From Parcubacteria group bacterium (GTDB taxonomy: Bacteria > Patescibacteriota > Patescibacteriia > UBA9934 > GWF2-40-263): DNA of 64,000 nucleotides. The notes under the pieces are model-generated. The model worked only from the letters and a program-made list of their open reading frames with translations, did no database searches and was not told the origin of the DNA. The stretch lies in the NCBI GenBank assembly GCA_013204395.1, contig JABMNZ010000026.1, forward strand, positions 13,421-77,420, given 5' to 3'. The position numbers and the translations under genes were made by a program. This document shows positions 2,345 through 29,456 of the stretch, piece after piece (position 1 is the stretch's first letter; each line of letters begins with the position of its first letter).

Positions 2345-3221
2345 AGCTCACCACCTCACACGAGAGAGGATCTACCAGGTAGGTCTCGTTTTATGTGTCT
2401 GTGGTTTTGCCATGGCGCTTTGGGCACACACAATTTCTTTGGTCATGCCGTGGGAGCAAAGACCATTGCGAGTCTGGATGTTGGATGTGGGTCAAGGTGA
2501 TTCATTGCTCATCGAGATGCCTACGGGCGAGAGAGTACTTATTGATGGTGGACGAGATAAAAGTGTACTTTCAAAAATCGGAACCATTTTGCCACCCTGG
2601 GATCGTCGCATAGATGTGATCATTCCAACGCATCCTGACGCGGACCATATTACTGGACTCATCGAACTCACAGAGCGTTATGAAGTTGGTCTCATGATAG
2701 AGACTGGTGCCATGGCGCACACTCCACAAGGAGAAGCATTTTCACAGATTGTTATTCCACGGAAGAAAGTGAGTGCCGGTGATGTGTTGGTGTACGGAGA
2801 TGTGACACTTGAAGTTCTTTGGCCAGAACAAACTAAGCAAGGGGAGTACCCTCAAGATCGCAACGGTGCATCGCTCGTGTTCCTGCTGACATACGGTCAG
2901 ACCACCATGCTTCTTACGGGTGACGCTGAGGAATCAGCTGAGCATGCTTTTTCGGAGCTCTCTGGTGATGTAGACGTACTCCATGTCGGTCATCATGGAA
3001 GTCTCACTTCTACTACTTGGAAACTTTTGAATCTGACGAGGCCCGAATTTGCTTTGATATCAGTTGGAGAAAATAATACCTATGGTCACCCACATCCCGT
3101 TGTTGTTTCAAGACTTATTCTCTCCGGTTCAAAAATCTTTAGGACAGATTTAGATGGTGACATATTGCTTACCTCTTATGGTGGGGAACCAACCGTTGCA
3201 CCGCATCCCTTGCTGTTCTGA
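2229..3221 (+). CDS. comEC: ComEC C-terminal metallo-beta-lactamase-fold domain (separate frame; frameshifted/split comEC)
   Basis: HPDADHITGL and HVGHHGS metal-binding motifs of ComEC MBL domain; overlaps 866..2344 by ~115 nt in different frame; alternative internal start ATG 2412. Confidence 0.55.
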   Translation: MDRFHLPRSNLPMPDFWLSPWQQSSFSSGFTFVMRAAPKAHHLTRERIYQVGLVLCVCGFAMALWAHTISLVMPWEQRPLRVWMLDVGQGDSLLIEMPTGERVLIDGGRDKSVLSKIGTILPPWDRRIDVIIPTHPDADHITGLIELTERYEVGLMIETGAMAHTPQGEAFSQIVIPRKKVSAGDVLVYGDVTLEVLWPEQTKQGEYPQDRNGASLVFLLTYGQTTMLLTGDAEESAEHAFSELSGDVDVLHVGHHGSLTSTTWKLLNLTRPEFALISVGENNTYGHPHPVVVSRLILSGSKIFRTDLDGDILLTSYGGEPTVAPHPLLF

Positions 3222-3265
3222 TAATTTCGTGGTAGTTTTCGCGCAAAATAACGTAAGAATTTATT

Positions 3266-3727
3266 ATGCCAGACACACAAAAAACACTCGTACTTTTGAA
3301 GCCCGATGCCCTACAGCGCGATTTACTTGGTGAGATAGTGATTCGGTTTGAGCGTAAGGGTCTCAAGATTGTTGGAATGAAACTTATTCGTCTCACTGAC
3401 GATCTTCTGGATGAACATTATGCTCATCATGTAGATAAGCCATTTTTTGCATCACTTAAAAAGTTCATGATGCAGACGCCTGTGGTTGGAATAGTTCTTG
3501 AGGGAATTAACGCTATCGATGAAGTGCGAAAAATTGTTGGGTCCACAAATCCACAGGAGGCTGATGCAGGAACTATCCGCGCAGACTTCTCGATGCATGT
3601 AGGATCAAATCTGATCCACGCATCTGACACAGTTGAAAACGCGCAGGCTGAATTGAAACGTTTCTTTAGTGATGATGAGATTTTCCAGTACGACAAGATC
3701 ACAGACAGTTACGTTTTTGGAGATTAG
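3266..3727 (+). CDS. ndk: nucleoside diphosphate kinase
   Basis: LVLLKPDALQRDLLGEIVIRFERKGLKIVGMK N-terminus and NDK active-site region (H in GSNLIHASD). Confidence 0.9.
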   Translation: MPDTQKTLVLLKPDALQRDLLGEIVIRFERKGLKIVGMKLIRLTDDLLDEHYAHHVDKPFFASLKKFMMQTPVVGIVLEGINAIDEVRKIVGSTNPQEADAGTIRADFSMHVGSNLIHASDTVENAQAELKRFFSDDEIFQYDKITDSYVFGD

Positions 3728-3741
3728 TTTTAGTTAGTTAA

Positions 3742-3788
3742 AAAGCAGGGTTTCAATAGAGATAAGCTCTAGGGCCCTGCTTTTTTGA
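3742..3788 (+). terminator. rho-independent terminator after ndk
   Basis: agcaggg…ccctgct stem followed by TTTTTTG. Confidence 0.6.
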
Positions 3789-3867
3789 TTGACTGAGCGA
3801 GAAGTCTTTGGTAGCTTAAATTTTGTGCATTTCACGCACTCAATTCTTACAAAGGGATTATTTCGCC

Positions 3868-4059
3868 ATGGGGAAGTTGTTGAAAGAGTTGGAGGAGCTC
3901 TGGCTGAAGGTGACCGAGAAGAGTTCTCGAATCGTTGATGCGTTCATGTCGAGCTTGCTCACGCTCGAGCAGGTTCGCTACGCATCTGCCACTTCCATGG
4001 GGACGCGTGCCTTGCGTCACTTCTGCAACATCGACGATCCACGATTGGCTCAGGCCTAG
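3868..4059 (+). CDS. small hypothetical protein (63 aa) in high-GC non-coding-like region
   Basis: ORF only; no RBS; may be remnant. Confidence 0.2.
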   Translation: MGKLLKELEELWLKVTEKSSRIVDAFMSSLLTLEQVRYASATSMGTRALRHFCNIDDPRLAQA

Positions 4060-4273
4060 CGTAGCAATCGTCGTCTAGCACGTAGAGACTGTGCTCGCGA
4101 GCGTGCACAACTCCTCTTAAATCGAATCCACTTGCCGAAGGTTCGGTTCCAGAGATTCCTCGGTTCGAGCACTGTTGGTTCATTCAGGCCTACCGTTCAC
4201 ATCTCTACGGCTGGTCACGGGGTTGATGGTCGGCCTCTTGTCTGTCTCAACGTCTCGCTCTGACACACGCACT

Positions 4274-4300
4274 GGATCCAAAGTGGGTCCTTTTTTATTA
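4274..4300 (+). terminator. degenerate copy of the family-specific terminator (ggatccaaagtgggtcc + T7 + ATTA)
   Basis: Same architecture and flanks as terminators at 8616 and 10271 (GGTCCAnACGyTGGACC TCTTTTTTATT). Confidence 0.5.
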
Positions 4301-4590
4301 TCCACAAGCTATTTGACAGAGGGTTCATCACACAGTAGCCTAATTGAAGTTATGAATCAGACAAGTTACATGATGCCCCACATCCTCTCAGCCGAGAATA
4401 TTCTCGACATTATTGTCGTTATTCTTCTAGGCTTTGCGGTGGCATAGTATTCTCTTGTAAATAAGAATCACTATCAATCACCGCTTAATAGCGGTGATTT
4501 CTTTTTACAAACAATGGTTCTTTCGCGACAAAACATTCTTCTGGGATGTTCTGTGGCGTAAGAAACGCCTGATTATCCTAGGAGGTGTGC

Positions 4591-5574
4591 ATGCAAGCAC
4601 TCGGCACGGTTGCCCAACTCATCAATCCCGAGTTCGTGGCCACAGAAGGTCTGTATGAGTTTCGGGAAGCTACGGCAGAAGACATTCCAGCGATTCGAGA
4701 GTTGCTGTTTGATTGGTACGGCCCCTCGTACCCTTACCCGGTCAGTGCCCTCGATCCCAAGGGGTACTACCCGGCGGCGATCGATCGGAGTACGGGCATG
4801 CTTGTCGGTTTTGCCAAAGCGGTTCCGTACAAGGGGTTTCCTTCTGTGTACGAGTTCGGTGGGCTGATCGTTGCCAAGTCTCACCGGGAGAAGAAGATCG
4901 CCAAGCATCTTACGCGGATGCGTGTCGATTGGGTTCTGTCGCTGGGTGGAGCCGCTGTGGTAAGCGAGCCCGTGTGCTATCTGAGTGGTTGTCCGAGCCA
5001 GGAGAATCTCATCAAGGCAGGTTTTCACCTGGTGGCTCTGCAGGTTGGGAAGTATCCCGACATCATGCACGACACACTTGGCTTGCAGCCCGAGAGTGTA
5101 CTCATGGCCGTTCGCTGGCTTCGTGGCAATTCCCGGCTGGGACATCGCAAGGTGTTCTTGCCTAGTTACTACCGCGGTGTGTTGCACACGTTCTTGCCCC
5201 GTTACCTGCACCAGCGGCCGTGGGACGAAACGTTTGAAGATGTGCCGATGCCCCCCGCCGTTCTCCACAAGGGGTTCACCACAGCAGGTGGAACAGGGGC
5301 AGAGTTCGCTGATGTTCCTGTGAATTGGCCCGAAGCTGAGGGGATCATTCACAGTCTTCGTCTGCAGGGATTCAGGATGTGCGGCATCCTTCCAGGCTTC
5401 GGCCGCCTGTCAGACGATCGACCTTACGACTACCTGCGCATGTACCGGTTGCCAGCAAGCTTCATCATCGGGTCAGAGTCTTTCGACTTTGACAAGGTGA
5501 ATGTTGTGCCGCAGCTGGCCGCACTCAAGCACTTTGCGAGCATGGAACTCCATGGGGACATTCCCATCGAGTAG
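4591..5574 (+). CDS. GNAT-fold acyltransferase-like protein, two-domain (~327 aa)
   Basis: GGAGGTG RBS 5 nt upstream; N-terminal GNAT-like core (EFGGLIVAKSHREKKIAKHL); high GC; tandem paralogue of next gene. Confidence 0.6.
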   Translation: MQALGTVAQLINPEFVATEGLYEFREATAEDIPAIRELLFDWYGPSYPYPVSALDPKGYYPAAIDRSTGMLVGFAKAVPYKGFPSVYEFGGLIVAKSHREKKIAKHLTRMRVDWVLSLGGAAVVSEPVCYLSGCPSQENLIKAGFHLVALQVGKYPDIMHDTLGLQPESVLMAVRWLRGNSRLGHRKVFLPSYYRGVLHTFLPRYLHQRPWDETFEDVPMPPAVLHKGFTTAGGTGAEFADVPVNWPEAEGIIHSLRLQGFRMCGILPGFGRLSDDRPYDYLRMYRLPASFIIGSESFDFDKVNVVPQLAALKHFASMELHGDIPIE

Positions 5575-5604
5575 AAACACAGACACACAGAAGACTTGGA
5601 GGGC

Positions 5605-6540
5605 ATGATGCAAGCAGAAATTGATCCAGAAGATCGTTCGAAGACCAGTGATGAACTTTATCTTCGTCCAGGGAGATCTGAAGATATTTCGGCGCTCGAG
5701 CAAATCTACCGTGAAATTTACGGAGAGATGTATCCCTACTTGCCGACCTTGGAGACCGTTTGTCCAAGCAAGGGTCACTTTCTCGTCGCTTTGATTGGGA
5801 AGGAAATCGTAGGCTGCGCTGCGGCCTACGAACAGACAAATCCTTTCCTCGTGGAGTGGGGGAGGCTCGTTGTCAGTGAGCGATTTCGTGGCAGGGGGAT
5901 CGCGAAGAAGTTTGGTCACGTACGTCGCCGCTTGCTCGCACAGGGCTCCATGAACATGGCACATTCTGAGTGCGTGTGTTACGGGAAGGCAAGCCAGCGG
6001 CTGTTGAGTGGTGTTGGCTTCACACACTGGGGCATCGAACCCCTCAAGCACCCAGGGCTCAAGCCAGATGTTTTGGGCACGCAGCCTGAGACAGTGGCAA
6101 TGAGTTTGCTCTGGGACGATGGGAAATTCGGTGGGCTGGGTACACGCTCCGTCTTCGTGCCAGAGGATTGGGTTGATGGCCTGCAACTCTTGGCTCCCAC
6201 AGATATTTTTGAACAAGCACGGCAGGTACGTGCAGGTTTCTGTGTTTCCTCATCGCAAGCACAGTACTATCACCCGCGCACCGATACGTCGACAGGAATC
6301 GAAGGTTCAACTCTGGTTGATGTCGATGTGAATCATGTCAGTGCCCTGAGTGTGATCGCTCAGCTGCGCGCGGAAGATTTCCGTCTGTGCGCGTTCATGC
6401 CTGGGGTGGTTGACCGTGAAGGTGGTATCGCCTCTGATCGTGTTCGGCTCTATCGATCTTCACCCGGTACTTACATCGACTGGAGCCTTATCCAGCTCGA
6501 ACCACAAGTCCACTCCTTCTGTGAGTGGATGCGTGCGTAA
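5605..6540 (+). CDS. GNAT-fold acyltransferase-like protein, paralogue of 4591..5574
   Basis: GGAGGG RBS; GNAT motif A RGRGIAKKFG; same length and shared motifs (PE[ST]V.M, RLYR, DW) with upstream gene. Confidence 0.6.
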   Translation: MMQAEIDPEDRSKTSDELYLRPGRSEDISALEQIYREIYGEMYPYLPTLETVCPSKGHFLVALIGKEIVGCAAAYEQTNPFLVEWGRLVVSERFRGRGIAKKFGHVRRRLLAQGSMNMAHSECVCYGKASQRLLSGVGFTHWGIEPLKHPGLKPDVLGTQPETVAMSLLWDDGKFGGLGTRSVFVPEDWVDGLQLLAPTDIFEQARQVRAGFCVSSSQAQYYHPRTDTSTGIEGSTLVDVDVNHVSALSVIAQLRAEDFRLCAFMPGVVDREGGIASDRVRLYRSSPGTYIDWSLIQLEPQVHSFCEWMRA

Positions 6541-6548
6541 CAAACGCA

Positions 6549-6578
6549 AAAGACCTCGACGCATGAGGTCTTTTTTAC
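6549..6578 (+). terminator. rho-independent terminator
   Basis: agacctc-gacgcat-gaggtct hairpin + TTTTTT. Confidence 0.7.
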
Positions 6579-6949
6579 TTGTGGAAATTTTGTGGATGAA
6601 CAGTGGACGTTTATCACTTGATTCACTTGCGTGGTTCTGGCAGCATGATAAAGTTTACTTGCCTTACGGTTCGGATGGGTGTGTCCGAAAAACAAATTGT
6701 AACAACTGGCCTGGGAATGCGGAGCTTCGGCACGGCAAAAGGGCCACACGGTTCTCAACTATCACAGCGTGGACGACATGGCGGATTAGACAAACTGCCA
6801 TCATCGCCACTAGTGATAGAGACAAAACCTGAAAGACTGGACTGGGTACTAGTCAGAACCGAACTGTGAACCAAAACTACAACAGGACCACCCATTCACC
6901 CGTTAGGCGCCAAAAAAATATAACCACCCCCCGCGGCGCGGGGGGTGGT

Positions 6950-6978
6950 TTGACGTTTAGGGGGTTTTCTTCTATTCT
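6950..6978 (+). promoter_or_regulatory. sigma70-like promoter TTGACG-N17-TATTCT preceded by GC hairpin 6924..6948
   Basis: Consensus-like -35/-10 with 17-nt spacer ~40 nt upstream of ATG 7019. Confidence 0.5.
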
Positions 6979-7018
6979 CTGCCCTTGCTCTTCTCAATTG
7001 AACACGAAAGGAAGTGTT

Positions 7019-8599
7019 ATGGAAACAAAGTTGTTCCGAGCCATTCACCTGCTGGCTGTGATCAGTGTGGCTCAATATGCGGTCGTACGTGCTTACACGT
7101 GGGGGTACCTCGGTAGCACCCCGGAGATGTTGGATTTCATGATGTGGCTATGTATTGCATACATAGGCGTATTTGAGCCACTAGCCGGTGTATTGGATAG
7201 ACGTCATGAACGGATCCTGAACTCCTTGGAATACCAAGTTGGCCACTTTGCGGCGCGGATCCAGTTCAAGACGGCTGACATGGAAGACTGTTTCGTGGCC
7301 ATGATCACTCGCCAGGCAACCAAGCACGGAATCCATTCCAGTGGTGGGTGGGCCGCAACGATTGCAGAAATCGTTTCTCGTCACATCTCCCGATGGGGGC
7401 AAGTTGATGACATGGGAGGACTACATCTCCATACGCAGTTGGAGAGAAGTGGCATCCAATTTGACTTGGATGAGATAGATCGATTCGACACCACCCTCTT
7501 CCAGATAGTGGAACGTCACGCGTCCCCATTACCTTTGGGTGTGGATCCGCTGGGTCACCAATATCTACTTGCTCGCGCCTACCTAGCAGGTGCTCTCAAA
7601 GGACTTGCTGGGTTGACCAAAGAGCTCGGTGGAGACGAGTCGATTACTCGAAACGTGCGGCCTGAGGATTTCGCCCTAGCGATTGATCTCTACTGCATGG
7701 ATCCCAGAGTGACTGACATGACGATGCTGTGGACGATGGAAGGTGATGGGGAAGTCCCGGTTGGTGCCTATGACCTCTTCTGGGTCCTGGCACATTGTCT
7801 TTACATCGGCATCGATCCTAAGTCTCTCAGACGCTACCTCGGTTACCACGGCAGTTACAGCTTCCTGGCTTTGGAAGAGCTGCTTCTGCTCAAGGCCATG
7901 AACACGCGCGTCCTTCAAGAGCTCACGGACAGGCCGAACTCCTTGGACGGGGTCCCATACGAGGAGATCAACGCCCTCGTTTGCCGATGGGAAAGTTGTG
8001 GATATCCAGAGAGCTTGGCGGTGTTCCGACAGTTCCCGGACGATGCAGCGTACTACGCCCACGTCCAAGCGCAGGAGCACGGGCGGGAACAGTTGGCTCG
8101 TCAAGAAGTTGAGCGTCGGGCACAAGAGGCTCATGAACTCGCGGCTCGAAAGGCAGAAAGCGCGCCCAAGGGTCGCAAGCGTGGTCAGGGAAACGCTCCG
8201 GTTTCTGAGCCAGTGGATCTTGATCTTCAGGCTCTGTGCGATGCGCTTGTCGTTTCCACTTCGTTCGAACATCTCGATGGAACGATCGTTTCTGTGATCA
8301 TGGTGATGGGTCTGATGGCGACCGGGGATCGTCTGCCCGCTTGGCAGGATCGACCTTCCCGTACTCGCGGAAAGATCTGGGGCCAGATCCGCTCGGTGGT
8401 TTCTGGATACGATCAGCCTCGGCGGATGGTAGATGACACGGTCACTGCTCTCGTCCGAGAGAGGGTGATTGATTACACGGGTGGCAACTACCGTCTGCGC
8501 GAGCCAAACGACGCCTTGCGAACAAGGAGTCCCGACTCACACGCACTACTCATCAGTGCCAAGGGGCTCATCAGTCGAGCCAAGGCACTAGCAAGCTGA
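7019..8599 (+). CDS. hypothetical protein, member 1 of a 3-copy paralogous family with conserved C-terminal ~130-aa domain
   Basis: AAGGAAG RBS before ATG 7019; C-terminal block D..ALC..L.V…F..LDG……GL…G.RL……P.R…K.WGQ……GGNY.L..PN aligns with 8723..10252 and 27300..28874. Confidence 0.55.
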   Translation: METKLFRAIHLLAVISVAQYAVVRAYTWGYLGSTPEMLDFMMWLCIAYIGVFEPLAGVLDRRHERILNSLEYQVGHFAARIQFKTADMEDCFVAMITRQATKHGIHSSGGWAATIAEIVSRHISRWGQVDDMGGLHLHTQLERSGIQFDLDEIDRFDTTLFQIVERHASPLPLGVDPLGHQYLLARAYLAGALKGLAGLTKELGGDESITRNVRPEDFALAIDLYCMDPRVTDMTMLWTMEGDGEVPVGAYDLFWVLAHCLYIGIDPKSLRRYLGYHGSYSFLALEELLLLKAMNTRVLQELTDRPNSLDGVPYEEINALVCRWESCGYPESLAVFRQFPDDAAYYAHVQAQEHGREQLARQEVERRAQEAHELAARKAESAPKGRKRGQGNAPVSEPVDLDLQALCDALVVSTSFEHLDGTIVSVIMVMGLMATGDRLPAWQDRPSRTRGKIWGQIRSVVSGYDQPRRMVDDTVTALVRERVIDYTGGNYRLREPNDALRTRSPDSHALLISAKGLISRAKALAS

Positions 8600-8615
8600 C
8601 CGACATGCTCGGTCT

Positions 8616-8645
8616 GAGGTCCATACGTTGGACCTCTTTTTTATT
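8616..8645 (+). terminator. rho-independent terminator (gaggtccatacgttggacctc + T-run)
   Basis: Perfect hairpin and TTTTTTATT; near-identical to 10271..10300. Confidence 0.8.
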
Positions 8646-8654
8646 GTCATTCTC

Positions 8655-8683
8655 TTGACAAAGAGGCCTTTTCCCCTTAATCT
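8655..8683 (+). promoter_or_regulatory. sigma70-like promoter TTGACA-N17-TAATCT
   Basis: Consensus -35, 17-nt spacer, ~40 nt upstream of ATG 8723. Confidence 0.5.
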
Positions 8684-8722
8684 CCCTCCTTCGCCTAGGA
8701 AGGCGATGAGAAAGGTTTCTTC

Positions 8723-10252
8723 ATGGGAAAGATGCGTGCCGTTAGGGGAAAGAAGTTCCGTCTGACCGTCCCCGGGCATGGGATGCCTGAAGAAGTGAGG
8801 TCCCTCACTCAAGGACCCGTGCTCGCAAGGTTGATGTCAACCGATTCTGCATCGGTAGTTCTGATCGATGAGCTGATCAAGTCCATGCGTTTGCTCTCAT
8901 CGGACGTCTCGTCTGTACGCGAAGCTCTGCGACGATTTGTGGAGTCTGAGCACAAGGCAGGTGAGGGTTTCGACAAGACACTCTGTCGAGTGATTGAGCA
9001 GCTATCTGAGCGCTGGACTGAGCATGGGATCAGATCCGGAATCAGGACCCTGATCTATCTGGAGAGGCACGGTTTTGCCTACGAGACACTGGGTGAACAC
9101 CTGGAGTGCTTGCGTGGTATGACGGACGTCATCATCATCGCGATCGAAGAGGGGGCACAGTTTCCCCACACCTTGGCTGGGGCTTTCCCCCTTCTTCTGC
9201 AAACGAGGGGAGAGGAGTTCCTCGTTTTGGCGATTCACATGTTCGTTCACGCACTCTCTGAGGAAGAGGGGATGGTGTGTCTGGACTACGCTCCCAGAGG
9301 ACGAAGGGTCTTGAGCATTCCTGTGGTACCCAGTGTGATGATGATGTACTGGAGAGACATGTTCGAGATCTTCAGTCCGGAGTTCGACAGAAAGAAGGCC
9401 ATTGGGCTCCCGACCACACCGTTTGACACAGGGAAACTTATCCCTGATGGGTGGAGGTGCTTCAAGCGCATTGGTGAGCTGGACCTCAATCCAGATGAAC
9501 AAAAGCGGGTCATCGATCTGGGCGCCATTCGTTTGGTTCAAGTTCTGAGGGATCGTGAGCTCAGTGTGCGGACCATGCGTTTGGCACTTTTGGCGACTGT
9601 CTCAAACACAGAACTTCAGAAGCTTCTGGACAATACTCCCGAGTACATCAGGACCGTGAAGGTCTGGGAAGCTCTGGCGTGTCTGTGCTCGCTTGGCGAA
9701 TTCCACACACTCGGAGGAACCCAGGATGCGTGGGAGACTCATGTCGCCAAGAAGGAATCTGACCGAATGCTCCGCGCAGAGCAGGTAAGGCAGAAAGCCG
9801 AGGAAGAAGCTCGTCTTCGACAAGAGCGTCAGGCTGCCAATGCTCCCAACCCACAAAAACGCGGAAGTCGCGGGTACGCTCCGGGCAAGCCTGCAGAAGT
9901 GGACTTCGAGGCCCTGTGCTCCGAGCTCGACGTCTGTACGCAGTTTCCTGGAATGGATGGTGACATCACACGCATCATCCTGGTGCACGGCTTGCTTCGC
10001 GACGGTGAGCGACTGGCTTCACTAGCAAGTCTGCCCGAGCGCAACGAGAAGAAGCTCTGGGGCCAGTGCAAGACATTCTTGGGCGGTGGCACATCACGTC
10101 GCGAGTTCAAGGGTGCTCTCGGGAAGCTCGTATCTGCTCATCTGGTTTCCTTCTCCGGAGGCAGCTACCAGCTTGGCAAACCAAACCCGCGCTTCCCTCA
10201 GGCAAACGCGGTGCTCACACAGCTCCGCGGCCTGGTGAACAAGTACAGCTGA
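8723..10252 (+). CDS. hypothetical protein, member 2 of the paralogous family
   Basis: Conserved C-terminal domain (…FEALCSELDVCTQFPGMDGD…GGSYQLGKPNPRFPQAN…); charged coiled-coil-like linker before it as in other copies. Confidence 0.6.
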   Translation: MGKMRAVRGKKFRLTVPGHGMPEEVRSLTQGPVLARLMSTDSASVVLIDELIKSMRLLSSDVSSVREALRRFVESEHKAGEGFDKTLCRVIEQLSERWTEHGIRSGIRTLIYLERHGFAYETLGEHLECLRGMTDVIIIAIEEGAQFPHTLAGAFPLLLQTRGEEFLVLAIHMFVHALSEEEGMVCLDYAPRGRRVLSIPVVPSVMMMYWRDMFEIFSPEFDRKKAIGLPTTPFDTGKLIPDGWRCFKRIGELDLNPDEQKRVIDLGAIRLVQVLRDRELSVRTMRLALLATVSNTELQKLLDNTPEYIRTVKVWEALACLCSLGEFHTLGGTQDAWETHVAKKESDRMLRAEQVRQKAEEEARLRQERQAANAPNPQKRGSRGYAPGKPAEVDFEALCSELDVCTQFPGMDGDITRIILVHGLLRDGERLASLASLPERNEKKLWGQCKTFLGGGTSRREFKGALGKLVSAHLVSFSGGSYQLGKPNPRFPQANAVLTQLRGLVNKYS

Positions 10253-10270
10253 CCGAGTTTCGCTCGGTCC

Positions 10271-10300
10271 GAGGTCCAAACGCTGGACCTCTTTTTTATT
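10271..10300 (+). terminator. rho-independent terminator (gaggtccaaacgctggacctc + T-run)
   Basis: Perfect hairpin + TTTTTTATT. Confidence 0.8.
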
Positions 10301-10354
10301 AAGCTATCTGTGGATATCGCTTTACTTGACTAAAGTATTGTAAGCTGTTATCTT

Positions 10355-10654
10355 GTGGGCATGCGTATTGAAGATAAAAATACAGAGAGTCTTTTTCTCG
10401 CCATATTAAGTTTGCAAACCCTTGAAGAATCAAAGGCATTCTTTAGAGATTTACTCACGGAAAAAGAGATTGAGGAGTTCTCCAATCGTTGGAAAGCGGC
10501 TCGTATGCTTTCTGAGGGCATTCCCTATTCAAAGATTCAAACGGAAACAGGATTATCTTCACGGACGGTGGCTCGTATTTCCAAATGGCTCCAGTCTGGT
10601 AAGGATGGATATAAACTTATGATTAACCGAACACATCATCATGACGACTCCTAG
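10355..10654 (+). CDS. TrpR-like YerC/YecD family DNA-binding protein
   Basis: ~100 aa, …SNRW.AARMLSEG.PYS.I….GLSSRTVARISKWL… characteristic of YerC/YecD. Confidence 0.7.
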   Translation: MGMRIEDKNTESLFLAILSLQTLEESKAFFRDLLTEKEIEEFSNRWKAARMLSEGIPYSKIQTETGLSSRTVARISKWLQSGKDGYKLMINRTHHHDDS

Positions 10655-10679
10655 GAGATGCGTCATTTGAATTGTTCAA

Positions 10680-10709
10680 AAACACGCGTCTCCGGCGCGT
10701 GTTTTTTAT
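10680..10709 (+). terminator. rho-independent terminator
   Basis: acacgcg-tctccgg-cgcgtgt + TTTTTTATT. Confidence 0.75.
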
Positions 10710-10724
10710 TAGAAATGAAAAAAT

Positions 10725-11870
10725 ATGAATGTTCGTGAACTAACAAAAAAACTCATCTCTCTTCAAAGTTTTGATGATGGAAGACTTTATGAAAAACCAA
10801 TGTCTGATTTTTTGGTCGCCTATGTAGAAAAGAATCTTCCATGGTTGAGTATTGATCTTCAGGAAGTGGAACCGAATCGTTTCAATGTCTATTTACGAGA
10901 TAGTTCTCCAACAAAACTTCTGGTTGTTGATCAGATTGATACGGTTGTGCCAGAGCAGGGTTGGGACGGGGAGGCACTGCTGCCTGTTGAAAGTGATGGA
11001 AGAATTTACGGTCTTGGATCAAGTGATTCAAAGGGGAACGTTGCTGCGTTTTTAAAAGCACTTGAGCGTTTCGGTGAAACAAAAGGTCTTGCCATCTTGC
11101 TTTACGTTGACGAGGAATATTGTTTCAAAGGCATGAAGTATTTTATTTCATCTTCGCTTGCTAAGAATATACAACCAGAGTTCGTCTTGTCGATCGATGG
11201 CAACGGTTCGGTTTTGGGAAGCGGTTGCCGCGGGTTGGTTGAGTTTGATATTCAGATTCGTTCTGAGTCGGGACACACGGCAAACCCAAAAACACCTGGG
11301 GCGCTTTTGCCTTACTTGACCGTTTTTCAAAAATTTCAAACATGGCTAAAGCAATACTCTGATTTGGAGCAAGGGGAGGCTACAGCACAGATTGCGAATT
11401 TACGAAGTGGTTTGATTGTTAACGAATCAGATGAAGGTTTCGTGTTCGGAAAAGAGGGTAACCGCCTTCCGAATTTCACAGAGGCGAAGATTGAAATTAG
11501 AACGACACCGACTCTCTCATGGAAAGAGATTGAAAGCTTCTGGAAGTCTGAGTTGGGTCGCTACGCTGATCTTGACGCAAGCCTAACAGGAATATTCGAT
11601 CTTGATGGATTCTCTACACCTCGTGAGAGATTGAAGCTTTTGGAGCAATCCGTTTTCGATTCCATTGGAAGTGTTTCTTACTTAGATCCATCGACTTTCG
11701 GTTACCTGGATGTGGCGATGTTGAAGACGGTTTTTCCAGATGCAAGTTTGTGTTCTTTTGGAATTGGCGAGCCGGGGGTCAATCATAAGCCAAACGAGTA
11801 TGTTCGTATCGATAGATTAGACGAGGGAGTATCTGTGTACTTGCAGATACTCAAGAAACTTCTCACCTAG
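10725..11870 (+). CDS. M20 family metallopeptidase/deacylase (ArgE/DapE-like)
   Basis: Length and motifs (LGSSDSKGN…; HTANP…) of M20 peptidase family; low GC. Confidence 0.6.
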   Translation: MNVRELTKKLISLQSFDDGRLYEKPMSDFLVAYVEKNLPWLSIDLQEVEPNRFNVYLRDSSPTKLLVVDQIDTVVPEQGWDGEALLPVESDGRIYGLGSSDSKGNVAAFLKALERFGETKGLAILLYVDEEYCFKGMKYFISSSLAKNIQPEFVLSIDGNGSVLGSGCRGLVEFDIQIRSESGHTANPKTPGALLPYLTVFQKFQTWLKQYSDLEQGEATAQIANLRSGLIVNESDEGFVFGKEGNRLPNFTEAKIEIRTTPTLSWKEIESFWKSELGRYADLDASLTGIFDLDGFSTPRERLKLLEQSVFDSIGSVSYLDPSTFGYLDVAMLKTVFPDASLCSFGIGEPGVNHKPNEYVRIDRLDEGVSVYLQILKKLLT

Positions 11871-11879
11871 GAGACAGAC

Positions 11880-12728
11880 ATGGAATCCGTTCTTTTGACT
11901 CAGGGCAGTTGGAAGCGTCAGCGAGAGATCGTCGACGCTCTGGTGCTCGCATACGCAACACAGTTCTGGTGCGGGACCTGGAGAGAGCTGCTCGCGATTC
12001 GTGACGCCGACGGTTGCATCGAACAACAGTTCGGCACCTTCGATCAATACGGCAGCATCTACCCGGAGACACAACAGCTTCTGGAGCTCGCTGGTATTGG
12101 AGAGGATGATCCAAATTGGCCCAACAGGCTTTGGGCCCTGGCCGAATCTGGAGAGCTGAGGACGGTGGATGGCCGACTGGTCACGCCGTACTGGTCGCTG
12201 GATAGTGCAAGGCAGGAACTCCTCAGGTTCGTTACGTCAACGGATTCGGATGGGTACGGAGGCGAACTGCTGGTTCTCGTTGAGAGATCACAGATCGTGG
12301 GCTTCACGGCATACACATGCCTTCGTGACGCGGACGGACGTCAGGTCGCGGACAAGCGATTTCCTGTGGAGCGTCTGCACATTCCGATCGACAGTCCAGA
12401 GGCTACACAAATGTGTCTGGGGGAGTACCTGAAGAGTCAGTACGGTGAGTCACTGACCCTTGGGATCTTTCTCGATCACGCCGTCTCAGAAGTGTATCGC
12501 GGACAACGTCTGGGAAGCCGTCTGTTCGACGAGCGAATCACCCGACTGTTGGAGTTGGGTGCTGAGGTGATTCTCGGAAGAACCATCCTGACGTCCCCCA
12601 GGCAGTACCGTGGCAACTACCTCGCCCGAGGTCTTCGGCCATTTGCCGCTGACGGCACTGACGCCTTCAGCCTGTCCAAGCACTACTTCTGCACAGAAGT
12701 TTCCGAGCTCACTCCCCGAGCGAGCTGA
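11880..12728 (+). CDS. GNAT family acetyltransferase with N-terminal extra domain
   Basis: TAGGAGA RBS; C-terminal GNAT core …VYRGQRLGSRLF…; abrupt switch to high GC 9 nt after upstream stop. Confidence 0.55.
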   Translation: MESVLLTQGSWKRQREIVDALVLAYATQFWCGTWRELLAIRDADGCIEQQFGTFDQYGSIYPETQQLLELAGIGEDDPNWPNRLWALAESGELRTVDGRLVTPYWSLDSARQELLRFVTSTDSDGYGGELLVLVERSQIVGFTAYTCLRDADGRQVADKRFPVERLHIPIDSPEATQMCLGEYLKSQYGESLTLGIFLDHAVSEVYRGQRLGSRLFDERITRLLELGAEVILGRTILTSPRQYRGNYLARGLRPFAADGTDAFSLSKHYFCTEVSELTPRAS

Positions 12729-13370: not shown

Positions 13371-15401
13371 CTAGGTGGCCTCGAGTTCGGCGATCATGGC
13401 GTCCACTTCGTCGACGAAGACCTGAGGGTCGCCGTCGCTGGGCCAGCGCCACTTGTCGTGGGCGCCGAGCCCCAGGGATGCCACCAGCACGGAGTCCGGG
13501 CTGGCGTTCCTCTTGAACTGCGCGAAGTCAAACTTGATGTACCAGTCGCGCATCCACTTGAGAAGGAACGCTCGGTCGTAGATGACGTCGTCGTCCTTCT
13601 CCTTGCGACCAAAGGCTGTCTCAGCCAGGAAGGCCATGCGTCTGGGCTCGGCGCCCGTTCGCATCATATCGTGCATGTAGAAGTCCGTGACGGGGTAGGG
13701 CCCCATCTTGTCTTCAGAGGACTGGATCTCTTCTCCCTCTGCCACCTGCACCAGTTCTGGTGAGATGCGTCGGTTGACGATCCTCATGAGAACCTCTTTG
13801 AGAGGCTCTTCATGGGTCATGTACTCGATGTAGTACTGGACCAGGTACTGGACCAAGGTCTTGGGGATGTTGGCGATGACGTGGAAGTGCGACGACTGGT
13901 CGCCGCCTTCCGTGCACCACCCCTTGGCCGCTTCGCTCATGTCCCCGGTTCCCAGGTTGAATCCCAGGGTCTTGAGGACGAAGGTTCGGGCGCGGGCTTG
14001 GGCATTCTCGCACTGCGTGCACTTCCAGCACGGGTCGTGGCCAGCGGCCTTGAGTGCTGCTGTGGCCAACTCGGTGATGTCAGCCGTGTGAATTCCCGTA
14101 CCTAGTGCTCGGGCCAGGGTGAGCGAGTCGTCCTGTGACTCATCACCTGAGGCAGGGCCTGGAAGCCGGACGCTGGTGAAGAACTGTCGAGACCACCCAA
14201 GGCGGTCGTAGCTGTACACCGTCACCAGGTCAGCAAGACAAGAGTCGAGTCCTCCAGAGAGTCCCATAAATGTCTTGACGGGTTCTCCGTCTTTGCTGAG
14301 GTGCCACAGGCGACCGATGACTCCTTGACCGAGCCCGTTGAAGAGCTCTCTACCCACCTTCTCCATGGCCGTCGGGTCACTGGGGACAAACGGCAGGCGC
14401 TTGAGCTCACGGCGGAAGTCCTTGGTGTCAGGGAACCAGCTGCGCACTTCCGTGGTCACGAAGCGGTAGGGGAAGCGAGCGACACGTTGCGCCTGCCTCC
14501 AGCCATCGTCAGCGTTTCGGTCGTGCATCAGCTTGCCAATGTCGATGTCGCTCACCAACAGCTCGCTTTGGCCAGGCAACATCCAGCGCTTGCTGGACGC
14601 CAGGATGCGACCATCCTCGATGATCATCGAATGTCCATCCCACACCACCGACGAGGTGGAATCACCTGCCTGGATAGCGTAGATGTACACGCTCTTTTGA
14701 CGACCTGAGTTCGCCGGGAACAGCACTTCTCGCCACGTATCCTTGCCCAGCACCCAGTTGGATGCGGACAGATTCACAATGACGGTGGCACCGTTGTGAG
14801 CGTGGCGATCTGCTGGACTTGGCGTTTGCCATCCATCCTCGCAGATCTCGATCCCCATGGTGAACACGTCTTCATATCGTCTGTCGACAAACGGGATCAG
14901 AATGTCCGTCCCAATGGGAACAGGTGTGTCCTGCCACTCGAGCTTGACCTCGGTGGCTTGCAGGTCACACGCGGCGGAGAACCACTCGTTCTCCTGCCAC
15001 TCGCTGCGTCCAGCCAGGTAGCTCTTGGGAATGAACGCGATGACCTGTCCTTGAGAGACAACCGCCGCGACGTTGAACAGAGCGTCCAGTGCGAGGGGGA
15101 GTCCCAAGACAAACGTCGTTGCGATGTCAGCGGTTTTCAAGCAGAAAGTCTCAAGCGCTTCCAGGCAGGCGATCTGTAGACCGCGCTGACGGAAGGCATT
15201 GCGGCAGCCGTAGCCAGAGAGGCCCAGCTCAGGAAAAGCCATGAGCTGGATCTTCTCGGCGTCAGCCCGCAAGGCCATTTCCAGATGGCGCTTGAGGTTG
15301 ATGGCAACGCCCTTGGGCTTTGTCCAGAACGTGGCTGTTGCTACACGAGCAAAGCCGAAGCTGCTTGAACGACCGCGAGCGGTCTGTACTCGTTGGGTCA
15401 T
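13371..15401 (-). CDS. nadE: glutamine-dependent NAD+ synthetase (N-terminal nitrilase/CN-hydrolase domain + C-terminal NAD synthetase)
   Basis: 676 aa two-domain architecture (CEDGWQ catalytic Cys region; SGGLDS PP-loop); AAGGAG RBS; high GC. Confidence 0.85.
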   Translation of the reverse strand: MTQRVQTARGRSSSFGFARVATATFWTKPKGVAINLKRHLEMALRADAEKIQLMAFPELGLSGYGCRNAFRQRGLQIACLEALETFCLKTADIATTFVLGLPLALDALFNVAAVVSQGQVIAFIPKSYLAGRSEWQENEWFSAACDLQATEVKLEWQDTPVPIGTDILIPFVDRRYEDVFTMGIEICEDGWQTPSPADRHAHNGATVIVNLSASNWVLGKDTWREVLFPANSGRQKSVYIYAIQAGDSTSSVVWDGHSMIIEDGRILASSKRWMLPGQSELLVSDIDIGKLMHDRNADDGWRQAQRVARFPYRFVTTEVRSWFPDTKDFRRELKRLPFVPSDPTAMEKVGRELFNGLGQGVIGRLWHLSKDGEPVKTFMGLSGGLDSCLADLVTVYSYDRLGWSRQFFTSVRLPGPASGDESQDDSLTLARALGTGIHTADITELATAALKAAGHDPCWKCTQCENAQARARTFVLKTLGFNLGTGDMSEAAKGWCTEGGDQSSHFHVIANIPKTLVQYLVQYYIEYMTHEEPLKEVLMRIVNRRISPELVQVAEGEEIQSSEDKMGPYPVTDFYMHDMMRTGAEPRRMAFLAETAFGRKEKDDDVIYDRAFLLKWMRDWYIKFDFAQFKRNASPDSVLVASLGLGAHDKWRWPSDGDPQVFVDEVDAMIAELEAT

Positions 15402-15504
15402 GGCGTCTCCTTAGGTCCAGTTAAACGTGAGGGCATGATCAGAGATTTGATCGAGCTCTCGCGTAAAAGCTCGTGCGTACCACGAGCGGGTGGGGACCTG
15501 AGGG

Positions 15505-16155
15505 TCAGGTCATTTCGTAGGACTTGTTGGAGTTGCGATCTCCGGCCGACGCGGCCTGCGGACGCTTTGCTTCGGCCAGCTGCTGCTTCAAGCGTTCGGC
15601 TCGCAGCCACTGGGCGAAGGCGAAGGTGCGCACGCCGTCGTGGATGGTGGTTGGATCGCAGAACACGCTGATGGGCATCCACAGACGGCTGATGTCCTCA
15701 CCTTCATTGGGATTGCCAAGGCCGGTGTCAGGGCCAGTCACCTTTGCTGTGTCGATCCTTGCCACGCTCAGGAAGGCGCGCTCGGTGAGGATGCCAGCGG
15801 ACAGGCTCATGGAGCGCCCACCATTGAGGACGACGACTGCGTCTTCCGTCATGGCCGCACCAGCTTCTTCCGAAGCTTCCTTTACCGCCAAAGCCTTGGG
15901 GCCGAGGTCGACATCAAAGCGCCCGGCGACCGTTTCGATTTCGACACCCGTGGGGTTGTCATCGCGCATTTGCGTCAGGTGCATCTGTGAGATGAGGAGA
16001 ACGCGGTCTCCTTCCAGATCAATCAGCAGGCAGCTGACAGAGTCGGTCACGCGGACCACTTCTCGAGTGTTTCCGCCGCTGTCCAACCAGGATTCCACTT
16101 GGCAGAAGCCGTCGTGGAAGGTGGCCTCATGTGAGGGGGCTGAGGGTTCTGACAT
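15505..16155 (-). CDS. Nudix hydrolase (possible ADP-ribose pyrophosphatase)
   Basis: GGAGGTGA RBS before internal ATG at 16155; Nudix box-like …GPKALAVKEASEEAGA…; longer ORF to 16392 rejected. Confidence 0.5.
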   Translation of the reverse strand: MSEPSAPSHEATFHDGFCQVESWLDSGGNTREVVRVTDSVSCLLIDLEGDRVLLISQMHLTQMRDDNPTGVEIETVAGRFDVDLGPKALAVKEASEEAGAAMTEDAVVVLNGGRSMSLSAGILTERAFLSVARIDTAKVTGPDTGLGNPNEGEDISRLWMPISVFCDPTTIHDGVRTFAFAQWLRAERLKQQLAEAKRPQAASAGDRNSNKSYEMT

Positions 16156-27271: not shown

Positions 27272-27301
27272 TAAAGAAAAATGAGACTCCGTATGAGTCT
27301 C
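27272..27301 (-). terminator. rho-independent terminator (minus) after paralogue 3
   Basis: gagactc-cgtat-gagtctc hairpin then U-run on minus strand. Confidence 0.65.
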
Positions 27302-28874
27302 ATGTCGAGTACTTTGCCACCAGGCCCCAGAGCTGCGAGAGCAGGGTGTTGGCCTTGGGGAACCGTGGATTTTTGCGGGCGAGTTGGTAGTTGCCGCCCG
27401 TGTAGCTGATCAGGTGGGCATCCACCAGTGATCGCATGGCTTTGACCAGCTGCCTTCGGCTGGTAAGTGACACGTGATCTTTCACCTGTCGCCACACCTT
27501 CTTGTCATCTCGCGATGGCAGGGAGTCTGCCGTTGCCAAACGCTCTCCAGTTTGCAGGAGCCCGTAGACAAGTACTGCGCTCACGAGATCTCCGTCCAGG
27601 TCCGGGAAGGACGCGCAAACGTTGAGCTCGGAGCAGAGTGCATCAAAATCTGCAGATGCTTGCTCGCCATCATCTTTGAAGTTGGGGTGATGGCGTTTGT
27701 TTCCGGTTGGTTTTTGTTCGACAGGACGAGTGGGTGGGGACGTGTTTGCATCGCCTGATGGGATTGCTTGCAGACGTGGCAAAACCGTTTCCGTTTTCAG
27801 GGCCTCTAGGGCTGCTTTCGCGGTCAGGTGATTGTTCCAGTCAGCAGCAGAGCCACCAATGTCCCAAAACTCCCTGAGCAGGCAGGGACGTCCGACTTGC
27901 TCCCATTGATCAACAAGGTGTCGTAGTAGAGCCTGGTCGTTAAAGGTATAACGGAGGAGATCTGGTTCCTGCAGGCAGAGCGTCAAACTCTCTTGCGTGA
28001 GATCTCCGCGCTCGATCATGAGAAGGGCCATGAGTCCACCCGTGAACGAGAGTTCCTCGATGACTTTGCGCAAGTCGACCCTTCTGAATCCACTCAGTCG
28101 CGCTGCTGTGAACAGCTCCCACAACCGAAGTGGACCGTAGATCTCTTCGTAGAACATGACCCTATCGCAGACGTCGCGAATCTCAGGGAACGAGAGAAAG
28201 AACTCAATGGCAAGTAGCAGTGCGTCAAGGTCCTGCGGGTCTGGAAGGACAGGAGGATTTTCACTGAGAATGATCCGCCGGTCTTTGGTCAAGGCCAGCA
28301 TGGCCGTTACGGCGATTAGGCGCTTCGCCTGCGGTCCGTAATTACTGTCCGATGTCTCGATGACGTCAAGCTTGTTTTTGCTCAGGTCACTAAGACGGTT
28401 CACGAAGCTTTGAAGGTTCCTTGTACTTGTGAACCTCAGACCAAACGTCTCTACGATGTGTAGAACGCTGAGTGTCCTGTCGAGGTCTTTGCCGAAGATG
28501 TCCGTAAGTGATGCCACAACGCTGTTCATCGTGGCCAGGTATCCACCACGCTTCATGGGGCCCACACTGAGCGTCATTCTCGTGAGTGCCGTCGTCAGAC
28601 ATTCAACTGAGCCGGGTTGGATTCCCTTGTCTTCAAGCCATTTGCGCCACGTGGAGGGGATGAGACGATCGTCATCCTTGATCATTCTCCATGCATGGCT
28701 AGAGGGAATGATGTCGATGTCCATTTCACGGCCAAGCGAGTGGAGTACACCATTACGACGCTGCCCCTTGTATCCGGGGATTTGTTCGAACTCTGCTGTA
28801 AGCCTGGGTTCGATGGTGAGACACTGGATGTAGCGGTATCCACGACTGGATCTGCCTTGCAGTTTCACGTGCAC
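27300..28874 (-). CDS. hypothetical protein, member 3 of the paralogous family
   Basis: AAGGAGGTG RBS; C-terminal …FDALCSELNVCASFPDLDGD…GGNYQLARKNPRFPKAN…. Confidence 0.6.
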   Translation of the reverse strand: MHVKLQGRSSRGYRYIQCLTIEPRLTAEFEQIPGYKGQRRNGVLHSLGREMDIDIIPSSHAWRMIKDDDRLIPSTWRKWLEDKGIQPGSVECLTTALTRMTLSVGPMKRGGYLATMNSVVASLTDIFGKDLDRTLSVLHIVETFGLRFTSTRNLQSFVNRLSDLSKNKLDVIETSDSNYGPQAKRLIAVTAMLALTKDRRIILSENPPVLPDPQDLDALLLAIEFFLSFPEIRDVCDRVMFYEEIYGPLRLWELFTAARLSGFRRVDLRKVIEELSFTGGLMALLMIERGDLTQESLTLCLQEPDLLRYTFNDQALLRHLVDQWEQVGRPCLLREFWDIGGSAADWNNHLTAKAALEALKTETVLPRLQAIPSGDANTSPPTRPVEQKPTGNKRHHPNFKDDGEQASADFDALCSELNVCASFPDLDGDLVSAVLVYGLLQTGERLATADSLPSRDDKKVWRQVKDHVSLTSRRQLVKAMRSLVDAHLISYTGGNYQLARKNPRFPKANTLLSQLWGLVAKYST

Positions 28875-28916: not shown

Positions 28917-28975
28917 GATTAGTTGAATTGGACTCTACCGTCAAGGATTATAGGATCTGAAAAAAGGGTGTCAAA
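28917..28975 (-). promoter_or_regulatory. two tandem sigma70-like promoters on minus strand (TTGACA-N16-TATAAT; TTGACG-N17-TAATCT)
   Basis: Consensus hexamers; second matches promoter of paralogue 2. Confidence 0.5.
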
Positions 28976-29452: not shown

Positions 29453-29456
29453 TTAT

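What the first reader, a model, noticed from the sequence alone, without database searches (positions are those of the whole stretch)
7019..10252. Tandem pair of an unrecognised ~520-aa protein family with a conserved ~130-aa C-terminal domain
Two adjacent high-GC genes (7019..8599, 8723..10252), plus a third copy at 27300..28874 on the minus strand, share no recognisable catalytic motifs such as Walker, HExxH or DDE. They all end in the same domain: D/E-x-x-ALC-x-x-L-x-V-x-x-x-F-P/E-x-L/M-DG-[DT]-…-I/V-L-V-x-GL-…-G-E/D-RL-…-LP-x-R-…-KK-x-WGQ-…-GG-N/S-YQL-x-K/E-PN-…-FP-x-AN. This domain is preceded by a Lys/Arg/Glu-rich linker, and the N-terminal ~350 aa diverge. Each gene has its own sigma70-like promoter (TTGAC[AG]-N17-TA[AT]TCT) and a near-identical hairpin terminator. 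That arrangement suggests independently expressed, recently duplicated units. The C-terminal domain, with its GGxYQL beta-hairpin-like end, looks like a winged-helix or oligonucleotide-binding module. The family could be the variable component of a mobile or defence-related module.
Basis: seen in the sequence. Interest (0 to 1): 0.8.

Follow-up and report, generated by a model that had tools for sequence, protein, structure and literature searches.

The report
Hypervariable winged-helix protein family in Parcubacteria
Three genes in this candidate-phyla-radiation bacterium belong to a rare, unnamed protein family that joins a fast-changing, structurally novel front half to a conserved, positively charged winged-helix (probably DNA-binding) tail; what the proteins do is still unknown.

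Summary
Genes A (7019-8599), B (8723-10252) and C (27300-28874, minus strand) are real paralogs with no hit in Pfam, NCBIfam, PHROGs or PADLOC. An exhaustive search of 1.84 billion representative proteins found only 31 relatives. Every context I examined (11 of the representatives) lies in a Uhrbacteria-like Parcubacteria genome.

The genes are chromosomal, not mobile. They sit at two or three syntenic spots as arrays of one to four independently transcribed copies.

Between closely related genomes the flanks are 83-96% identical in DNA and the winged-helix part 71-81%. The N-terminal domains of B and C share no detectable DNA similarity (16-32% protein identity). N- and C-terminal similarities are discordant, which indicates domain shuffling.

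The duplication is old, not recent.

Best reading (inferred, confidence 0.42): modular nucleic-acid-binding sensor or regulator proteins with a diversifying recognition domain.

This is a new family built on a known output domain, of moderate interest.

The parts
6950..6978 (+). Promoter-like site of gene A (TTGACG-N17-TATTCT)
   Evidence: The same sequence is found upstream of the A ortholog in L001.
7019..8599 (+). Gene A (526 aa, NQV89615.1), the A-type member. It has two hydrophobic N-terminal segments (residues ~5-27 and ~37-58), a helical domain, an E/R/K-rich helix, the basic motif APKGRKRGQ and a C-terminal winged helix (about 8216-8596).
   Evidence: The ortholog in L001 is 74% identical, with dN/dS 0.36. 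Kyte-Doolittle 19-residue maximum is 1.78 at residue 5.
8616..8636 (+). Intrinsic terminator of A (GAGGTCCATACGTTGGACCTC followed by a T-run)
   Evidence: It is conserved after the A ortholog in L001.
8655..8683 (+). Promoter-like site of gene B (TTGACA-N17-TAATCT)
   Evidence: Read. It is conserved in L001 and L008. It lies inside the 83.5%-identical DNA block that ends at 8697.
8689..8707 (+). 5'-UTR inverted repeat cTTCGCC-loop-GGCGAt between the -10 box and the ribosome-binding site of B
   Evidence: The same TTCGCC...GGCGAA arms, with variable loop length, lie upstream of four other family genes (L001_485, L003_469, L008_486, L008_452p). Its function was not tested.
8723..9830 (+). Gene B, hypervariable N-terminal part (codons 1-~370: helical domain plus the 39-residue E/R/K helix)
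   Evidence: There is no nucleotide similarity to the sister genome L001, although both flanks match at 81-84%. Protein identity to P0002 is 16-18%. Synonymous sites are saturated.
9831..10252 (+). Gene B, conserved 3' part: the basic motif NAPNPQKRGSRG and the winged-helix domain (residues 393-509, 9899-10249)
10271..10291 (+). Intrinsic terminator of B (GAGGTCCAAACGCTGGACCTC followed by a T-run)
27300..28874 (-). Gene C (524 aa from the first GTG; NCBI uses the second GTG, giving 522 aa, NQV89635.1). It has an N-terminal helical domain, a Pro-rich linker with the motif PTGNKRHHPNF, and a winged helix (about 27303-27653).
   Evidence: The N-terminal model has pLDDT 86.8 and pTM 0.83. Compared with L015, the 121-aa neighbour is 94.9% identical in DNA, the N-terminal part shows no similarity and the winged-helix part is 70.9% identical.
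28947..28974 (-). Promoter-like site of gene C (perfect TTGACA-N16-TATAAT)
27281..27303 (-). Intrinsic terminator of C (ATGAGACTCATACGGAGTCTCAT followed by a T-run); different from the A and B terminators

Best explanation
A, B and C are members of a small, lineage-restricted family of modular cytoplasmic proteins; the A type is probably membrane-anchored. The conserved, basic C-terminal winged helix, preceded in most members by a basic arm of the form P-x-G-x-K-R, is the output module and most likely binds DNA. A spacer follows upstream: a single E/R/K-rich helix in A and B, and a Pro-rich linker in C. It connects the winged helix to a ~330-aa all-helical N-terminal domain of a fold with no solved relative. 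That domain is the specificity, sensor or partner-binding module and diversifies extremely fast. The genes are separate transcription units arranged in arrays of one to four copies at two or three fixed chromosomal spots. Arrays expand and contract. N-terminal domains are swapped between strains and paralogs by recombination, with the conserved promoter/5'UTR and the winged-helix coding part acting as flanking homology. Functionally I propose one-component-style regulators or sensors whose recognition domain is under diversifying pressure from phage, the host cell or variable ligands. Shown here: the family, its architecture, the winged-helix fold, its basic charge, the arrays, the synteny, the hypervariability and the N/C discordance. 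Inferred: nucleic-acid binding, the sensor role, the recombination mechanism and the conflict context.
Confidence: 0.42

Rival explanations
1. The winged helix is a protein-protein interaction module, as in cullin/APC2 WHB, RPA32/Stn1 or kleisin C-terminal domains. On this reading the family are adaptors or scaffolds that dock variable N-terminal domains onto a conserved cellular partner, without binding nucleic acid.
Against: The domain is strongly basic in every member, and most members have an adjacent basic arm. DNA-binding factors (MecI, PadR, Fur, MarR, IclR, histone H5) score within 1-1.5 Z units of the top. No SMC, cullin-like or other candidate partner gene is conserved next to the arrays.
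Confidence: 0.2
2. They are components of a new anti-phage or inter-bacterial conflict system. The diversifying N-terminal domain would recognise invader or host proteins, and the winged helix would trigger a transcriptional or DNA-level response.
For: Tandem arrays with copy-number variation, allele-like replacement of the recognition domain between near-identical genomes, and domain shuffling are hallmarks of conflict loci. dN/dS is higher than in neighbours. This overlaps with the best explanation and differs only in naming the selective agent.
Against: No PADLOC or PHROG match for any of the 30 members. No nuclease, NTPase, toxin or other effector domain is present. The neighbours are housekeeping or metabolic genes rather than defence islands. 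No integrase or tRNA boundary is present.
Confidence: 0.2
3. The winged helix binds RNA, as in SelB, La, CvfB, TilS-C or Z-alpha. The proteins would act post-transcriptionally, for example by autoregulation through the 5'-UTR hairpin TTCGCC...GGCGAA or through the adjacent structured RNA candidate at 6655-6955.
Against: All of these links are positional or sub-threshold. A 5'-terminal hairpin is also a common mRNA stabiliser. A- and C-type genes lack the hairpin. Covariation support for the RNA is weak with only five sequences.
Confidence: 0.1
4. They belong to a mobile element: Rep or relaxase-type proteins, phage structural proteins, or cargo of an integrated element.
For: Higher GC than some neighbours. 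Winged-helix domains occur in plasmid Rep proteins.
Against: Conserved chromosomal synteny across at least six genomes. No tblastn hit in 50,697 phage or 72,556 plasmid records, and none in IMG/VR. No PHROG hit. No integrase, tRNA or repeat boundaries. The high GC3 is shared with NAD-salvage, GNAT and hydrolase genes and is conserved in the orthologous genome.
Confidence: 0.03

Closest known systems
One-component wHTH transcription regulators (MarR, IclR, PadR, BlaI/MecI, Fur, CRP families)
   Same: The domain is a winged helix with the order helix, short strand, helix, helix, beta-hairpin wing, plus a further terminal helix that could mediate dimerisation. It is basic. It is attached to a separate, larger, variable domain, as in sensor-output regulators.
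   Different: No sequence-profile match to any of these families. The winged helix is C-terminal and separated from the other domain by a long charged or Pro-rich spacer. The ~330-aa N-terminal domain has no known fold relative. The proteins are two to four times larger than MarR, PadR or Fur.
Protein-binding winged helices: cullin/APC2 WHB, Stn1/RPA32 C-terminal WH, ORC/Cdc6 WH
   Different: No cullin repeats, OB folds or AAA+ domain. Sequence identity is 8-19%. The host is a bacterium of the candidate phyla radiation. The similarity is at fold level only.
Hypervariable, recombination-shuffled loci with a constant module and a variable module (for example type I R-M specificity subunits or polymorphic toxin/immunity cassettes; comparison from general knowledge)
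   Same: A conserved part and an exchangeable, highly divergent part; tandem arrays; sharp identity breakpoints between near-identical genomes; discordant domain histories.
   Different: No homology to any of those systems. No toxin, methylase or nuclease partner. The variable module is N-terminal and the constant module is a winged helix. The comparison is by analogy, not by membership.

Membership tests
Named wHTH regulator families (MarR, IclR, PadR, GntR, ArsR, Fur, CRP) | Significant match to the family's sequence profile (Pfam or NCBIfam gathering score) | tested here: not met
   No hit for A, B or C. Across 30 members there are only scattered sub-threshold hits (GntR E 0.13, HVO_A0261_N E 0.0026 in 2 members).
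Winged-helix fold (superfamily level) | Three-helix core followed by a beta-hairpin wing, confirmed by structural comparison | tested here: met
DNA-binding transcription factor (functional class) | Sequence-specific DNA binding and a definable operator | not testable with these tools
   Only indirect support: pI 9.0-11.3 in all members and conserved basic residues. No fixed-spacing operator is seen in the promoters.
Plasmid or phage replication initiators, relaxases, phage structural proteins | Profile match to a Rep, relaxase or PHROG family and location on a mobile element | tested here: not met
   No Pfam or PHROG hits. No tblastn hit in phages, plasmids or IMG/VR. Chromosomal synteny is conserved.
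Known anti-phage defence systems (PADLOC-DB 2.0) | Match to a defence-system protein model, or co-location with such genes | tested here: not met
   No hit for A, B or C. Among 30 members there is only AbiEi at E 0.03 in 2 members, a wHTH antitoxin. The neighbours are metabolic or housekeeping genes.
Kleisins (ScpA, MukF, JetA) | C-terminal winged helix plus an adjacent SMC-type ATPase partner | tested here: not met
Alpha-solenoid or helical-repeat DNA binders (TALE, BurrH, mTERF) | Tandem internal repeats detectable by profile self-comparison and a strong fold match | tested here: not met
Hypervariable constant-plus-variable module loci (descriptive class) | Sharp loss of similarity confined to one module between otherwise near-identical genomes, discordant module histories, and copy-number variation | tested here: met
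   breakpoints at B and C; discordance; one to four copies per array.

The most novel reading that the evidence does not exclude
The family is a previously undescribed recognition system specific to the candidate phyla radiation. A structurally novel N-terminal domain would be exchanged like a cassette between strains and paralogs to track a rapidly changing target, either phage or host-cell molecules of these episymbionts. It would be coupled through a rigid spacer to a winged-helix nucleic-acid-binding output, and might work together with the conserved structured RNA encoded immediately upstream of the array.
Probability: 0.2. Interest if true: 0.8.

Novelty: new variant of a known kind. Interest (0 to 1): 0.5.

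Why it matters
Candidate-phyla-radiation bacteria have tiny genomes and few recognisable regulators or defence systems, so it matters what they spend their coding capacity on. This genome devotes at least three 1.5-kb genes to one unnamed family, and a relative devotes at least five. The recognition-like half of the protein turns over faster than anything around it. If the family proves to be a sensor or regulator tied to host or phage interaction, it would give a handle on how these uncultivated symbionts perceive their partners. The N-terminal domain is also a candidate new protein fold. If the family proves to be an ordinary set of regulators, the result is still a well-defined new domain family (N-terminal domain plus winged helix) suitable for Pfam.

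Tried and rejected
- Profile libraries. Pfam, NCBIfam, PHROGs and PADLOC were scanned with A, B and C. Pfam, PADLOC and PHROGs were also scanned with all 30 members. Nothing passed threshold.
- PDB sequence search with the family profile gave nothing.
- The word-indexed protein search found only 3 proteins, both with B and with the family profile, so it is too insensitive here. The exhaustive phmmer search was needed.
With a narrower alignment it found only Uhrbacteria BH28.
- The JGI metagenome-contig scan found nothing. The IMG/VR scan found nothing. Phage and plasmid tblastn searches found nothing.
- Foldseek matches of the N-terminal region to TAL effectors and designed repeat proteins were rejected (TM about 0.1, rmsd above 15 A).
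- The internal-repeat hypothesis for the N-terminal domain was rejected.
- Recent duplication was rejected.
- The idea that the high GC marks a foreign island specific to these genes was rejected. The GC3 mosaic includes many neighbours and is conserved in the sister genome.
- Rfam, ARAGORN tRNA and ARAGORN tmRNA searches were negative, including for the upstream non-coding element.
- Two literature searches found no description of the family.
Full report
**Observation**

The three ORFs are present as described:
- A: 7019-8599 (+), 526 aa.
- B: 8723-10252 (+), 509 aa.
- C: 27300-28874 (-), 524 aa.

NCBI lists them as hypothetical proteins NQV89615.1, NQV89616.1 and NQV89635.1 of a 'Parcubacteria group bacterium' MAG. 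A three-way alignment gives about 25% overall identity, with the similarity concentrated in the last ~130 residues.

BLASTP on the last 135 aa gives A-B 2.5e-28, B-C 2.6e-51 and A-C 1.5e-25. The first 330 aa alone reach only E 0.002-0.2. A six-frame search with the family HMM finds exactly three copies in the window.

Regulatory signals:
- A's promoter-like site is TTGACG-N17-TATTCT.
- B's is TTGACA-N17-TAATCT.
- C's is a perfect TTGACA-N16-TATAAT.
- A and B end in nearly the same hairpin, GAGGTCCAnACGnTGGACCTC plus a T-run. This hairpin occurs nowhere else in the window.
- C has a different terminator.

**Known families**

No Pfam, NCBIfam, PHROG or PADLOC model is matched by A, B or C. None is matched by any of 30 family members scanned one by one against Pfam, PADLOC and PHROGs. 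The only recurrent traces are sub-threshold hits to assorted winged-helix models: ANAPC2, CvfB_WH, Cdc6_C, GntR, HVO_A0261_N and AbiEi. A family profile against all PDB sequences finds nothing.

**Size and range of the family**

An exhaustive phmmer search of 1.84 billion cluster representatives with C returns only 31 proteins at E <= 0.001. Most are 460-534 aa and align over nearly their full length.

The 30-sequence alignment (A2) shows homology along the whole protein. From N- to C-terminus:
- N-terminal motifs L-T-R...G-P, L-E-x-x-G-F-x-Y and W...G-x-P..L..F...G-G-T..A-W..H.
- A variable spacer.
- In most members, a basic motif [ST]-P-x-G-x-K-R-[GH].
- The C-terminal domain.

Every genomic context recovered is a Parcubacteria chromosome. 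The one named species representative is Candidatus Uhrbacteria bacterium BH28.

**Structure**

With A2 as input, AlphaFold2 models B at mean pLDDT 80.7:
- Residues 23-330 are all-helical.
- Residues 334-372 form one 39-residue E/R/K-rich helix with pLDDT above 90.
- Residues 373-394, which carry the basic motif, are disordered.
- Residues 395-508 form a compact domain with pLDDT 93-98. Its order is helix, helix, short strand, helix, helix, beta-hairpin, helix.

Foldseek against the PDB gives no significant E-value. Its high-probability local hits (0.9-0.99) are IclR, MarR, CRP/FNR, Fur and HxlR regulators.

The domain is basic in all 30 members (pI 9.0-11.3, net charge +3 to +12), whereas the N-terminal domains are mostly acidic to neutral. 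Conserved basic residues sit in the first strand, in the helix before the recognition-type helix, and at the start of that helix (S-R-R).

The A subgroup (A, P0014, P0031) has two N-terminal hydrophobic stretches with Kyte-Doolittle 19-residue means of 1.7-2.0. This suggests a membrane anchor.

**Genomic organisation**

The genes are chromosomal and syntenic.

Spot 1 reads ComEC, MBL, NDK, GNAT-like, [array], TrpR-like..., NAD synthase, NAPRTase:
- Window: A + B.
- L001: 525 + 485 aa.
- L005: a split copy (329 + 154 aa) + 470 aa.
- L011: 525 + 499 + 497 + 480 aa.
- L013: 529 aa, an untested 280-aa gene, and 496 aa.

Spot 2 reads EF-G/S7/S12..., EPSP synthase..., 118-aa membrane protein, [array], alpha/beta hydrolase, Na/H exchanger:
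- Window: C.
- L003: 515 + 523 + 476 + 469 aa.

HMM searches confirm that the L003 and L008 arrays and the L005 split copy are family members. The L011 and L013 copies were identified by size and pairwise alignment. Uhrbacteria BH28 carries a fifth copy at a third place. A 5.5-kb ENA contig, L008, is filled by four copies.

Every copy has its own terminator, followed directly by a TTGAC -35 box. No partner gene is consistently adjacent. No relatives exist in 50,697 phage records, 72,556 plasmid records or IMG/VR. No tRNA or integrase flanks the genes. The 'mobile module' reading is therefore rejected.

**Hypervariability**

The window was compared with the sister genome L001 by blastn:

| Window segment | DNA identity to L001 |
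|---|---|
| 1-5573 | 87-89% |
| 6572-8697 (gene A plus B's promoter) | 83.5% |
| 8698-9830 (B codons 1 to ~370) | no detectable similarity |
| 9831-10300 (B winged helix plus terminator) | 80.7% |
| 10288-10729 (TrpR-like gene) | 96% |

At protein level:
- ComEC is 91% identical, GNAT1 96%, and A 74%.
- B is 39% overall: 16-18% in the N-terminal domain and 76% in the C-terminal domain.

The same pattern appears at spot 2 in a comparison with L015. The neighbouring 121-aa gene is 94.9% identical in DNA. C's promoter and N-terminal domain show nothing. C's winged-helix part is 70.9% identical. The corresponding protein identities are N 31-32% and C 64%.

Nei-Gojobori estimates:
- dN/dS is 0.09-0.20 for neighbours.
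- It is 0.36 for A (0.41 N-terminal, 0.23 C-terminal).
- It is 0.23 for B's winged helix.
- Synonymous sites are saturated in B's N-terminal part.

The family is therefore under purifying selection where orthology holds. The N-terminal domains of B and C have been replaced by very distant alleles rather than having drifted.

N- and C-terminal similarities are discordant:
- L011_3 and L013_3 share the closest N-termini (31%), yet their C-termini are 27% identical.
- L011_3's C-terminus is 61% identical to that of L008_3, whose N-terminus is 27% identical.
- P0011 behaves the same way.

This indicates domain shuffling. The low identities make individual pairs noisy, and I ran no formal recombination test.

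A, B and C are old paralogs. A has a clear ortholog in a related genome, and family genes occupy the equivalent B and C positions, so 'recent duplication' is not supported.

**Interpretation**

Shown here:
- A rare, clade-restricted, unnamed family.
- An architecture of a novel helical domain, a spacer and a basic winged helix.
- Independent transcription units in arrays of variable size at fixed chromosomal spots.
- Cassette-like turnover of the N-terminal domain.

Inferred:
- The winged helix binds nucleic acid, most likely DNA.
- The N-terminal domain is the specificity or sensor module under diversifying pressure.
- Exchange happens by homologous recombination that uses the conserved promoter/5'UTR and winged-helix coding parts as homology arms.

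I put 0.42 on this modular sensor or regulator reading. Rivals:
- A pure protein-adaptor role for the winged helix: 0.2.
- A new conflict or defence system: 0.2. This overlaps with the main reading and differs only in naming the selective agent.
- RNA binding: 0.1.
- A mobile element: 0.03.

**Novelty and score**

The output domain belongs to a very well known fold class. The family, its N-terminal domain and its population behaviour are undescribed. Two literature searches found nothing. I class it as a new variant of a known kind, with interest 0.5. It is surprising for people who study the candidate phyla radiation, but its function is unresolved.

**Side observations**

- A conserved, strongly structured non-coding element lies directly upstream of the first array gene in five genomes.
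- Per-gene GC3 in the window is bimodal, and the sister genome shows the same mosaic.
- A 5'-UTR hairpin is shared by several family genes.

Noticed in passing
window 6655-6955 (+), with a promoter-like site at about 6618-6652; also L001 7844-8288, L011 4601-4963, L013 9512-9949, L005 6041-6261: Candidate structured non-coding RNA of about 270-300 nt in the 478-bp gap between the second GNAT-like gene and gene A. It is 93.8% identical to L001, more than gene A itself (83.5%), and 68-75% identical in three more distant genomes. It always lies immediately upstream of the first family gene at spot 1. It has long invariant blocks (GGCCTGGGAATGC, GACGACATGG.GGAT..GACAA.CT.CCAT.ATCG, CCCGTTAGGCGC), a long closing helix, and a terminal hairpin whose sequence changes but stays paired. 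The T-run of that hairpin overlaps the -35 box of gene A. MFE is -119 kcal/mol, z = -8.1 against shuffles. RNAalifold finds 14 of 88 pairs with compensatory changes, but the covariation term is not favourable with only five sequences. No Rfam match at E <= 1, no tmRNA or tRNA by ARAGORN, and no conserved ORF is evident.
   Followed up: partly
whole window; the high-GC3 genes are 4585-6540, 7019-10252, 11880-12728, 13371-20130, 23421-24281, 26480-28874 and 32156-33094: Per-gene GC3 is bimodal. One set of genes has GC3 0.56-0.82: the GNAT-like genes, the three family genes, the NAD synthase/NAPRTase block, an acyltransferase and a hydrolase. These are interleaved with genes at GC3 0.25-0.49: ComEC, NDK, TrpR-like, M20 peptidase, Na/H exchanger and the whole translation-gene region at 33-64 kb. 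The same gene-by-gene mosaic is present in the sister genome L001, so it is stable rather than a recent insertion. Divergence between the two genomes is also mosaic (dS 0.05 for TrpR, 0.5 for ComEC, 1.1 for NAD synthase).
   Followed up: partly
window 8689-8707; L001 upstream of 10001; L003 upstream of 12929; L008 upstream of 2539 and 4142: An inverted repeat TTCGCC-(loop of 6-17 nt)-GGCGAA lies between the -10 box and the ribosome-binding site of five family genes. It is absent from A- and C-type genes. The variable spacing argues for an RNA hairpin at the 5' end of the mRNA (a stabiliser or autoregulatory site) rather than a DNA operator.
   Followed up: no
window 7031-7195 (gene A residues ~5-58); also P0014 and P0031: Only the A subgroup, which is always the first gene of the spot-1 array, has two N-terminal hydrophobic segments strong enough to be membrane helices. 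This suggests a membrane-tethered version of the protein. A is also the slowest-evolving copy: 72% N-terminal identity to its ortholog, against 16-32% for B and C.
   Followed up: partly
L005 6458-7918: Next to the intact 470-aa copy there is a split copy. A 329-aa ORF matches the N-terminal part of the family profile, and a 154-aa ORF that starts 7 bases later matches the C-terminal part. It is either a frameshifted pseudogene or an assembly error.
   Followed up: no
window 4585-5574 and 5596-6540: Two tandem paralogous ~320-aa proteins, 29% identical to each other, with an N-terminal GNAT acetyltransferase domain and an unannotated C-terminal half. The first is 96% identical to its L001 ortholog. 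The second is absent from L001. GNAT-like genes of this size precede the spot-1 array in L001, L005 and L011 (L013 has an unannotated 200-aa gene there instead). The region downstream of the array also differs between genomes (M20 peptidase plus a 282-aa ORF here; AstE, GNAT and Dtd in L001), so spot 1 is a general plasticity zone.
   Followed up: no
window 29087-32120 (+): A 121-aa hydrophobic protein and an 887-aa very acidic protein, both without any Pfam hit, are transcribed divergently from gene C. Counterparts (116-118 aa plus 881-949 aa) flank the spot-2 array in two other genomes. In Uhrbacteria BH28 the large protein is missing, so the linkage to the family is not strict.
   Followed up: no
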